Source of the DNA: Mobula hypostoma | Taxonomy: Eukaryota | Assembly (NCBI RefSeq): GCF_963921235.1 | Contig: NC_086108.1 | Coordinates: 46,750,001-46,814,000 of the forward strand | Reading direction: 5' to 3' | DNA: 64,000 nt | Shown: positions 38,642 to 39,268 of the stretch, one piece after another | How the letters are laid out: each line of letters begins with the position of its first letter | Numbering within the stretch: position 1 is the stretch's first letter | The notes under the pieces: generated by a model | Database searches by the model: none | Seen by the model: the letters and a program-made list of their open reading frames with translations, nothing else | What the model was told of the DNA's origin: nothing | Made by a program: the position numbers and the translations under genes

Positions 38642-39268
38642 TGGGGGACCGCTTCGTTGAGCACCTCAGCTCCGTCCGCCAAAACAGACAGGATCTCCCA
38701 GTAACCACCCACTTCAACTCTGCTTTCCACTCCCATTCAGATATGTCCATACATGGCCTCCTCTACTGCCATGATGAGGCTAAGCTCAGGTTGGAGGAGC
38801 AACACCTCACATACCGTCTAGATAGCCTCCAGCCCCTTGGTATGAACATAGAATTCTCCAACTTCCGGTAATTCCCTCCCCCTCCCTTCCTTTATCCCTA
38901 TGTCACTCTGCCCCCTCCCCCAGCTGCCTACCACCTCCCTCTTGGTTCCGCCTCCTTCTACTACCCATTGTGTTTTCCCCTATTCCTTCTTCACCTTTCC
39001 TGCCTATCACCTCCCTGCTTCCCCTCCCCCACCCCTTTATCTTTCCCCTTACTGGTTTTTCACCTGGAACTGACCAGCCTTCTCCTTCCCACCCTTCCCC
39101 CACCTTCTTTACAGGGCCTCTGCCCCTTCCCTCTACAGTCCTGACGAAGGGTTCCGGCCCGAAACGTCGACCGATCTTTTCCACGGATGCTGCCCGACCT
39201 GCTGAGTTCCTCCAGCATGTTGTGAGTGTTGCTTTGACCCCAGCATCTGCAGAGTATTTTGTGCTTAC
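38642..39268 (+). mobile_element. Young 5'-truncated PLE
   Basis: 15-bp TSD tacacacttagtcca at 38627-38641 and 39269-39283; GDRFVEH...HFNS...EEQHL...GMNIEFSNFR. Confidence 0.9.
39136..39173 (+). ncRNA. Minimal type-I hammerhead ribozyme in PLE terminus
   Basis: CAGTC-CTGACGA-AGGG-ttccgg-CCC-GAAA-CGTC-GACCG; conserved cores, stem II, palindromic ACGT stem III and GUC cleavage triplet. Confidence 0.75.

What the first reader, a model, noticed from the sequence alone, without database searches (positions are those of the whole stretch)
39136..39173. Minimal hammerhead ribozyme at the end of a young Penelope-like element, repeated across the window
Seen: CAGTC CTGACGA AGGG ttccgg CCC GAAA CGTC GACCG. 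This reads as stem I 5' arm, CUGANGA core, stem II, GAAA core, palindromic ACGU in place of stem III, GUC cleavage triplet, then stem I 3' arm. Related copies lie at about 5370, 7350, 12440(-), 20462, 30780, 62285 and 62874(-); three of them (20462, 62285, 62874) retain GACTG, which supports the stem I pairing. Established: PLE pseudo-LTRs encode minimal type-I hammerheads that cleave best as dimers. Inference: this abundant repeat scatters self-cleaving RNA motifs through host introns, many as short ORF-less terminal fragments.
Basis: partly seen in the sequence, partly recalled or inferred. Interest (0 to 1): 0.7.

Follow-up and report, generated by a model that had tools for sequence, protein, structure and literature searches.

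The report
Penelope hammerhead, antisense in ray intron
These 38 bases are an intact minimal hammerhead ribozyme motif at the end of a truncated, likely recent copy of a Penelope-like jumping gene in a ray, a kind described in 2014; it lies on the strand opposite to the host gene, so it likely cannot cut the host's RNA, and cutting itself is untested.

Summary
The motif is real. It has a full hammerhead core, a 4-bp stem II, palindromic ACGU and a predicted cut after 39168. It is the only descriptor hit in 64 kb, and 0 of 300 shuffles gave one. It ends a 627-bp 5'-truncated Penelope-like insertion (38642-39268) with a perfect 15-bp target-site duplication and an open GIY-YIG endonuclease tail; ray relatives carry the Neptune/Nematis-type zinc linker. 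All seven listed sister copies exist, but each has a damaged core, palindrome or stem I. The window lies inside AXDND1, on the minus strand. The focal copy and five others are antisense; the two sense copies have broken cores. So no working ribozyme is predicted in this host pre-mRNA. GACTG retention is identity by descent, not covariation. This is the known PLE minimal hammerhead (Cervera & de la Peña 2014), and this scan has already noted it many times in this genome and in a shark. One side lead: six of eight copies, not the focal one, have a pyrimidine tract and YAG just after the cut site, and one annotated ray SUMF1 isoform joins exactly there. Verdict: ordinary, low interest.

The parts
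38627..38641 (+). left target-site duplication, 15 bp
   Evidence: identical to 39269-39283; present once in a paralogue of the target repeat at 6966-6980, 14 of 15 identical, and in 5 contigs of run X1 that skip the insertion
38642..38871 (+). 3' end of the PLE ORF: C-terminal part of the GIY-YIG endonuclease, open to TAA; 5'-truncated, no RT
   Evidence: 76-aa open frame (its first base is the last base of the TSD); 76-84% identical over its whole length to ray proteins P0002-P0004, which carry RT motifs, a Cys linker and a weak GIY-YIG match
38872..39135 (+). pyrimidine-rich 3' untranslated part of the element
   Evidence: aligns with the copies at 30780, 62285, 62874(-) and 4600(-)
39136..39173 (+). 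minimal type I hammerhead motif; predicted cut between 39168 and 39169
   Evidence: only full descriptor hit in the window, 0 of 300 shuffles; matches the published min-HHR consensus (PMC4209133 Fig. S3)
39174..39186 (+). pyrimidine tract; ends in CGG here but in YAG in 6 of 8 copies (candidate splice acceptor, followed by ATG in several copies)
   Evidence: an annotated ray SUMF1 isoform switches to element-derived sequence at exactly this point
39187..39268 (+). conserved 3' terminal segment, predicted hairpins; the last ~45 bases behave like the optional PLE 'tail'; inferred region of reverse-transcription start
   Evidence: highest depth; fold z -1.64, 9 of 200 shuffles as stable; copy 30780 stops at focal position 39223, most others near 39266; tail-only insertion at 31975-32017 with a 13-bp TSD
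39269..39283 (+). right target-site duplication
5367..5500 (+). short ORF-less copy starting at the ribozyme's 5' edge; A6, G8 and G12 changed
7349..7424 (+). short ORF-less copy; A13 changed, palindrome lost
12329..12458 (-). short copy starting inside stem II, no CUGANGA; sense to the host gene
20462..20598 (+). short ORF-less copy; core intact, core-proximal stem I broken; 12-of-13 TSD at 20439/20597
29987..30866 (+). older truncated copy with linker and endonuclease remnant; G12-A13 lost; no tail
61469..62421 (+). older truncated copy with thumb, linker and endonuclease remnant; core intact, palindrome CG>CA, one stem I mismatch
62778..63401 (-). truncated copy, sense to the host gene; stem I complete but G8>A and G12>A
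32837..32962 (-). AXDND1 exon downstream (in gene direction) of the focal insertion
   Evidence: tblastn 41 of 42 residues with P0011; AG acceptor present
50835..50940 (-). AXDND1 exon upstream (in gene direction) of the focal insertion

Best explanation
The motif is the minimal type I hammerhead carried in the 3' terminal repeat of a 5'-truncated Penelope-like retrotransposon copy, likely of the Neptune type and likely recent, which sits antisense in an intron of AXDND1 and is therefore predicted to be an inert passenger at this locus. Shown: the boundaries, the 15-bp target-site duplication, the endonuclease tail, the intact core, the orientation. Inferred from PAc (PMC11167929): the element's RT-endonuclease protein nicked the target and began reverse transcription inside the element RNA, about 55 or about 100 bases downstream of the cut site, which gives copies without or with the tail, and then stopped early. 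Inferred directly from the sequences: the template was uncut (or re-joined), because all 8 ribozyme-bearing copies run through the cut site and none of the 11 other fragments starts at it. Inferred from the family: in transcripts of active tandem elements the motif would cut slowly after C17, once ACGU pairs with ACGU of a second copy to supply stem III or once the element's protein helps it fold. After insertion the motif likely decays fast, because G8 and G12 both lie in CpG dinucleotides.
For: Descriptor hit, 0 of 300 shuffles. TSD and empty site. Ray relatives with RT motif, C-x3/4-C-x2-C linker and Cys pair inside the GIY-YIG core; Pfam GIY-YIG E 5e-4 to 2e-3 in 3 of 5 proteins, below the curated cut-off. 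Majority of laid depth has T at 39172 (53% X1, 64% X11), and loose ends of other copies read GTCGACTG, so the family stem I is a full 5 bp. Two unrelated metagenome loci with the same core have different but paired stems. In five ungapped sister rows, CpG positions differ in 19 of 40 cells against 16 of 125 elsewhere (p 1e-5); G8 and G12 account for 4 of the 6 core changes. AXDND1: 10 exons on the minus strand across 7749-63622. Published: min-HHRs in pLTRs, monomer inactive, dimer weakly active (PMC4209133); PAc ribozyme needs the protein and is not needed for insertion in vitro (PMC11167929).
Against: No cleavage was measured. Nearest-neighbour energies disfavour the active shape: hammerhead-shaped monomer -5.8 against -11.3 kcal/mol for a fold that buries the core, and swapped dimer -13.5 against -27.7 for the best dimer. 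Rfam has no match. Within the ray copies no convincing two-sided change was seen: the three two-sided changes in inner pairs come from L002 and L003, which were found by a pattern fixing part of the motif, and L001 (1 of 3 hits, stems unpaired) was dropped before the count. No full-length element, 5' pLTR or RT tree was available (no genome held), so 'Neptune' rests on the linker and is not separated from Nematis. An antisense transcript over 39136 cannot be excluded.
Confidence: 0.82

Rival explanations
1. One reading: scattered copies act as ribozymes in host pre-mRNAs and cut or shape them.
For: Copies are dense (8 ribozyme-bearing copies in 64 kb) and intronic. In a genome this rich in copies some intact ones must lie sense in introns. 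Six antisense against two sense could reflect selection against sense copies.
Against: 1 of 8 is intact and it is antisense; both sense copies are broken. The reverse strand has no CUGANGA. The orientation bias is not significant (p 0.29; all 12 fragments p 0.39). Lone min-HHRs showed no cleavage in vitro (PMC4209133).
Confidence: 0.05
2. In this family the motif is a vestige or a folding and binding landmark for the RT rather than a catalyst; its 5' edge marks either the RNA's start or a place where RT stops.
For: 4 of 8 copies begin at focal positions 39136-39150 and none at 39169. Depth steps up in bin 39127-39153 (X1 0.88M to 1.55M; X11 15.7k to 97.9k). The active fold is disfavoured. Catalytic mutants of the PAc ribozyme insert normally in vitro (PMC11167929).
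Against: All 11 core positions, the extra A after A9, G10.1-C11.1, the palindrome and the cut triplet are kept in the youngest copy. Non-CpG core cells differ in 2 of 45 against 14 of 80 for other non-CpG cells (p 0.049; small sample, and the copies were found by likeness to the motif).
Confidence: 0.1
3. The short units are a separate non-autonomous retrozyme or SINE that replicates through its own cut and circularised RNA.
For: Short ORF-less copies with their own TSDs exist (20462, 31978). Non-LTR retrozymes derive from PLE pLTRs and were found in one chondrichthyan genome (bioRxiv 2026.07.22.740005).
Against: No tandem units among the window copies. 5' ends form a nested series from 38642 to 39228 with shared 3' ends, as expected from truncation. 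The focal copy includes ORF sequence. No copy is bounded by the cut site.
Confidence: 0.03

Closest known systems
Minimal hammerheads (min-HHR) in pLTRs of metazoan Penelope-like elements (Cervera & de la Peña 2014, PMC4209133; seen: main text parts 1-2 of 4, supplement parts 1-2 of 3)
   Same: CUGANGA, one extra base, G10.1-C11.1 stem II, GAAA, palindromic 15.2-16.2, NUH, short open stem I; placed after the GIY-YIG ORF; most copies single and tied to truncated elements.
   Different: No cartilaginous fish is listed in their Table S1 or Fig. S3. Stem II here is short (4 bp). A candidate splice acceptor lies 3' of the ribozyme, whereas in D. virilis the intron ends at the 5' side of helix I.
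PAc, Poseidon element of Anolis carolinensis (Frangieh et al. 2024, PMC11167929; seen: parts 1-2 of 4)
   Same: Ribozyme about 85-100 bases upstream of the element's 3' end; two 3' end points separated by a tail; copies made from uncut RNA.
   Different: Poseidon lacks the Cys linker that the ray relatives have. In PAc the ORF starts in stem II; here the ORF start is unknown and the first ATG follows the pyrimidine tract. No biochemistry exists here.
Neptune/Nematis clades of EN+ PLEs (as defined in Craig et al. 2021, PMC8557442; seen: passages)
   Same: C-terminal GIY-YIG with a Cys pair in the core, CX2-5CxxC linker between RT and endonuclease, 30-40 bp tail, inverted 5' pieces (4600).
   Different: No RT phylogeny was run; Neptune versus Nematis is untested.
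Non-LTR retrozymes of animals (Li, Clavereau & Pollet, bioRxiv 10.64898/2026.07.22.740005; seen: parts 1-2 of 5 and passages; supplements closed)
   Same: Type I hammerhead derived from PLE pLTRs; reported in one chondrichthyan.
   Different: Retrozymes are tandem, ORF-less units; the copies here are dispersed truncations. Their supplementary tables, unseen, may already list this family.

Membership tests
PLE minimal type I hammerhead | 11 conserved core bases (C3 U4 G5 A6 G8 A9 G12 A13 A14 A15.1 U16.1) and H17 | tested here: met
   all present in the focal copy, C17 = 39168
PLE minimal type I hammerhead | stem II with G10.1-C11.1 and an extra base after A9 | tested here: met
   4 bp, extra A at 39148
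PLE minimal type I hammerhead | no stem III; palindromic 15.2-16.2 | tested here: met
   ACGU at 39164-39167
PLE minimal type I hammerhead | open stem I of 2-5 bp | tested here: met
   3 bp next to the core plus 1 beyond an A.C mismatch; majority T at 39172 gives 5 bp in relatives
PLE minimal type I hammerhead | compensatory changes within the family | tested here: inconclusive
   one-sided changes in stem II among ray copies; inner two-sided changes only from L002 and L003; 8 rows
PLE minimal type I hammerhead | self-cleavage as a dimer or with protein | not testable with these tools
   no assay; both raw-read runs tried were DNA and laid 0 reads
Rfam hammerhead families | match to a curated covariance model | tested here: not met
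   no hammerhead family up to E=10; likely because the motif lacks stem III (inference)
EN+ Penelope-like element | C-terminal GIY-YIG endonuclease fused to RT | tested here: met
   focal tail 84% identical to P0002, which runs from RT motifs to GIY-YIG; Pfam match below the cut-off
EN+ Penelope-like element | variable TSD, 5' truncation, optional tail | tested here: met
   15-bp, 13-bp and 12-of-13 TSDs; two classes of 3' end
EN+ Penelope-like element | full-length ORF between two pLTRs | not testable with these tools
   no full copy in the window and no genome held
Neptune clade | CX2-5CxxC linker between RT and endonuclease | tested here: met
   in P0002-P0004 and P0007; the focal copy is truncated before it; shared with Nematis
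Neptune clade | RT phylogeny | not tested
Non-LTR retrozyme | tandem ORF-less units, each with a ribozyme | tested here: not met
   all window copies are single and dispersed

The most novel reading that the evidence does not exclude
In this ray family the ribozyme sits inside the 3' end of the element's retained pLTR intron. The core's CUGAN would double as the branch point, and a pyrimidine tract with YAG|ATG lies about 15-20 bases past the cut site. Splicing would then remove the ribozyme to make the mRNA, self-cleavage would sever branch point from acceptor, and only the uncut, unspliced RNA would be copied into DNA: a three-way switch. The main effect on the host would be a very abundant cryptic splice acceptor, not RNA cutting. 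For: YAG with 9-10 of 12 pyrimidines in 6 of 8 copies, like the host's own acceptors (background 460 of 8638 AGs); and a junction predicted before the search was met in the annotated ray SUMF1 isoform X2. Against: the focal copy and much of the depth laid at 39185 have CGG; the eight copies descend from one ancestral site; it is a single automated gene model; no spliced read was seen.
Probability: 0.12. Interest if true: 0.6.

Novelty: new member of a known kind. Interest (0 to 1): 0.2.

Why it matters
As it stands it matters little: PLE minimal hammerheads are described from fish, coelacanth, frogs and reptiles, and this adds a ray family that this scan has already noted repeatedly. Its use is as material. 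A very high-copy vertebrate family lets one test genome-wide an open question, namely what the PLE ribozyme is for: by asking whether intact sense copies are depleted in introns, whether insertion ends fall on the cut site, and whether the motif overlaps a splice signal. If the splice-switch reading held, it would link two unexplained PLE traits, intron retention and the ribozyme.

Tried and rejected
Own genome: none held, so no copy number, full-length element or genome-wide covariation. Rfam: no hammerhead match. Pfam and NCBIfam on the 76-aa fragment: nothing. Viral contigs: 0 matches. Metagenome contigs: 3 matches, none from this family (no likeness beyond the motif); L001 has unpaired stems and was rejected as chance. 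Sequencing runs: no RNA holder listed. The two raw-read runs tried, X21 and X22, laid 0 reads and are no test; X11 is only guessed to be RNA; contigs cannot show RNA ends. The depth peak at 39181-39234 was considered as a sign of copies starting at the cut site and rejected: the loose ends there continue into ribozyme sequence and differ only in the spacer. The X11 joint 38767-39186 was considered as splicing and rejected: one contig, ends do not fit. The CpG counts are invalid (two rows out of register) and were redone. One of the 10 host acceptors was misplaced by my offset (reads TAA). The downstream hairpin has two competing predictions and 1 of 26 pairs with a two-sided change, so it is not established. 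Lünse et al. (RNA Biol 14:1499) is not held; I saw it only as cited in PMC6765202. That the SUMF1 junction is a conserved exon end is recalled; a search for it found 0 papers. Paper searches that showed no description of an elasmobranch PLE hammerhead or of the acceptor overlap; most subscription papers, Repbase and Dfam were not searchable, so absence from print is not shown. Chance origin rejected.

Full report
Observation. They give a complete minimal type I hammerhead: C3-A9 at 39141-47, an extra A at 39148, a 4-bp stem II (39149-52 with 39157-60), G12-A15.1 at 39161-64, the palindromic CG, U16.1, C17 at 39168, and a stem I closing 3 bp next to the core, then an A.C mismatch, then one more pair. 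A descriptor asking for all of these hits once in the window and in 0 of 300 shuffles. The bare core pattern is barely above chance (12 hits, mean 6.55). Rfam has no hammerhead match up to E=10.

The element. The motif lies in a 627-bp insertion, 38642-39268, between two identical 15-bp repeats. The target is itself a repeat. A paralogue at 6860-7100 has the 15 bases once, and 5 contigs of run X1 skip the insertion at this point; these may be paralogues, so this shows the duplication but not polymorphism. The insertion begins with an open 76-codon frame. All 8 named-species hits among its 9 longer homologues are ray proteins (all 9 are rays: Hypanus, Mobula, Hemitrygon). The longest run from RT motifs through a C-x3/4-C-x2-C linker into a GIY-YIG domain with an internal Cys pair; Pfam GIY-YIG matches 3 of 5 tested, below its cut-off. 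By the definitions in PMC8557442 (passages) this is the Neptune/Nematis architecture; no tree was run. The copy is likely young: perfect TSD, open frame, all motif CpGs kept, and 11 near-private differences among the 40 of 95 rows shown. The family is large: 70,243 contigs of X1 and 10,056 of X11 were laid, flanking repeat included; these are not copy numbers.

Other copies. All seven listed copies are real, 71-78% identical to the focal copy, and each is damaged. 5370 has lost A6, G8 and G12; 7350 A13 and the palindrome; 12440 starts inside stem II; 20462 the two inner stem I pairs; 30780 G12-A13; 62285 the palindrome and one stem I pair; 62874 G8 and G12. In five ungapped rows CpG positions differ in 19 of 40 cells against 16 of 125. 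G8 and G12 both lie in CpGs, so methylation-driven decay likely disables copies quickly (inference). On 8 rows the named structure pairs in 81.9% of cells, above all 500 shuffles and all slid controls, but the inner two-sided changes come from two unrelated metagenome loci, and a third locus was dropped first.

Host context. Ten exons of AXDND1 run on the minus strand from 63622 to 7749 (best hit 96% identical, Mobula birostris), with AG acceptors. The focal copy lies in the intron between the exons at about 50835 and 32962, on the plus strand, so the pre-mRNA carries its reverse complement, which has no core. Six ribozyme-bearing copies are on the plus strand (5370 and 7350 lie beyond the last exon found, presumably still inside the gene, which continues to residue 1152) and two on the minus strand; both of the latter are broken. 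The bias is not significant.

Mechanism. In PAc, reverse transcription starts inside the element RNA at two sites downstream of the ribozyme, the stretch between them being the 'tail'; the ribozyme cuts only with the protein and is not needed for insertion in vitro (PMC11167929). The window fits this. Most copies end near focal position 39266, one at 39223, and a tail-only insertion has its own 13-bp TSD. All 8 ribozyme-bearing copies run through the cut site and none of 11 other fragments starts there, so the templates were uncut or re-joined. Published min-HHRs do not cut as monomers and cut weakly as dimers (PMC4209133). Folding energies disfavour the active shape here too, as expected for a motif that needs a partner or a protein. 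Cleavage was not tested.

Side lead. Six of 8 copies have a pyrimidine tract ending in YAG about 15-20 bases after the cut site, resembling the host's acceptors; 460 of 8638 AGs in the window meet the same rule. I predicted that a host isoform using this site would join just before the peptide that follows. Of 2 hits, one does: annotated SUMF1 isoform X2 of Mobula birostris matches human SUMF1 up to residue 327 and is element-derived from residue 328. The other hit reads through the site. That residue 327 is a conserved exon end is recalled, not verified. PLEs keep an intron in the pLTR (PMC2377424, PMC8557442, passages), and the core's CUGAN resembles the branch-point consensus (recalled). 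Against this: the focal copy has CGG, about 80% of X1 depth laid at 39185 has G, and the evidence is one automated model. I give the splice-switch reading 0.12.

Prior knowledge. The kind was described in 2014 (PMC4209133) and reviewed since (PMC6765202, PMC6155905, passages). I saw no cartilaginous fish in that paper's Table S1 or Fig. S3. A 2026 preprint reports retrozymes in one chondrichthyan (supplements not visible, and they may cover this family). This scan holds 81 notes fitting 'hammerhead Penelope' in this genome, of which 8 were shown, and one in a shark; they are unchecked and were not counted as support.

Verdict. Observation confirmed, interpretation partly supported, new member of a known kind, interest 0.2.

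Noticed in passing
window 7749-63622 (-): Ten exons of AXDND1 (axonemal dynein light chain domain-containing 1); the window is essentially its introns.
   Followed up: yes
window 31975-32017 (+): A 43-bp tail-only Penelope insertion with a perfect 13-bp TSD (31962-74 / 32018-30), the shortest product of internal priming.
   Followed up: partly
window 4129-4668: Minus-strand element body without a ribozyme, with an inverted duplication of its 5' end at about 4588-4668.
   Followed up: partly
window 55755-61095 (+): L1/Tx1-like element by its look: a 290-aa ORF1 frame and a 1323-aa stop-free ORF2 frame, so possibly intact (class named from recall).
   Followed up: no
window 51667-54131 (+): Non-LTR element in three frames with a C-terminal restriction-like endonuclease motif, R2/NeSL-like by recall.
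   Followed up: no
window 13958-16348 and 27477-29399 (+): Two long CR1-like RT frames (655 and 640 aa) (class named from recall).
   Followed up: no
window ~34570-38200 (+) and 48277-49550 (+): Broken retrovirus-like or LTR-element remnants (gag-like and integrase-end-like pieces; RNase H and integrase pieces), judged by eye.
   Followed up: no
window ~40660-42190 (+): Decayed Tc1-like DNA transposon with inverted ends, judged by eye.
   Followed up: no
window 38530-38641, 39269-39400, 6860-7100: The target of the focal insertion is a small high-copy repeat with an internal direct duplication.
   Followed up: partly
proteins P0006, P0008, P0009, P0010, P0014: Annotated ray isoforms of host genes (ATP5MC3-like, VKORC1L1, ABHD14A, LAMP3, SUMF1) begin or end in pieces of this element, suggesting frequent exonisation or annotation contamination.
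   Followed up: partly
L002:397-435 (-), L003:397-435 (-): Unrelated minimal hammerheads with the same core in metagenome contigs; L002 has a frame ending upstream that weakly resembles a PLE thumb region (tblastn E 0.49).
   Followed up: partly
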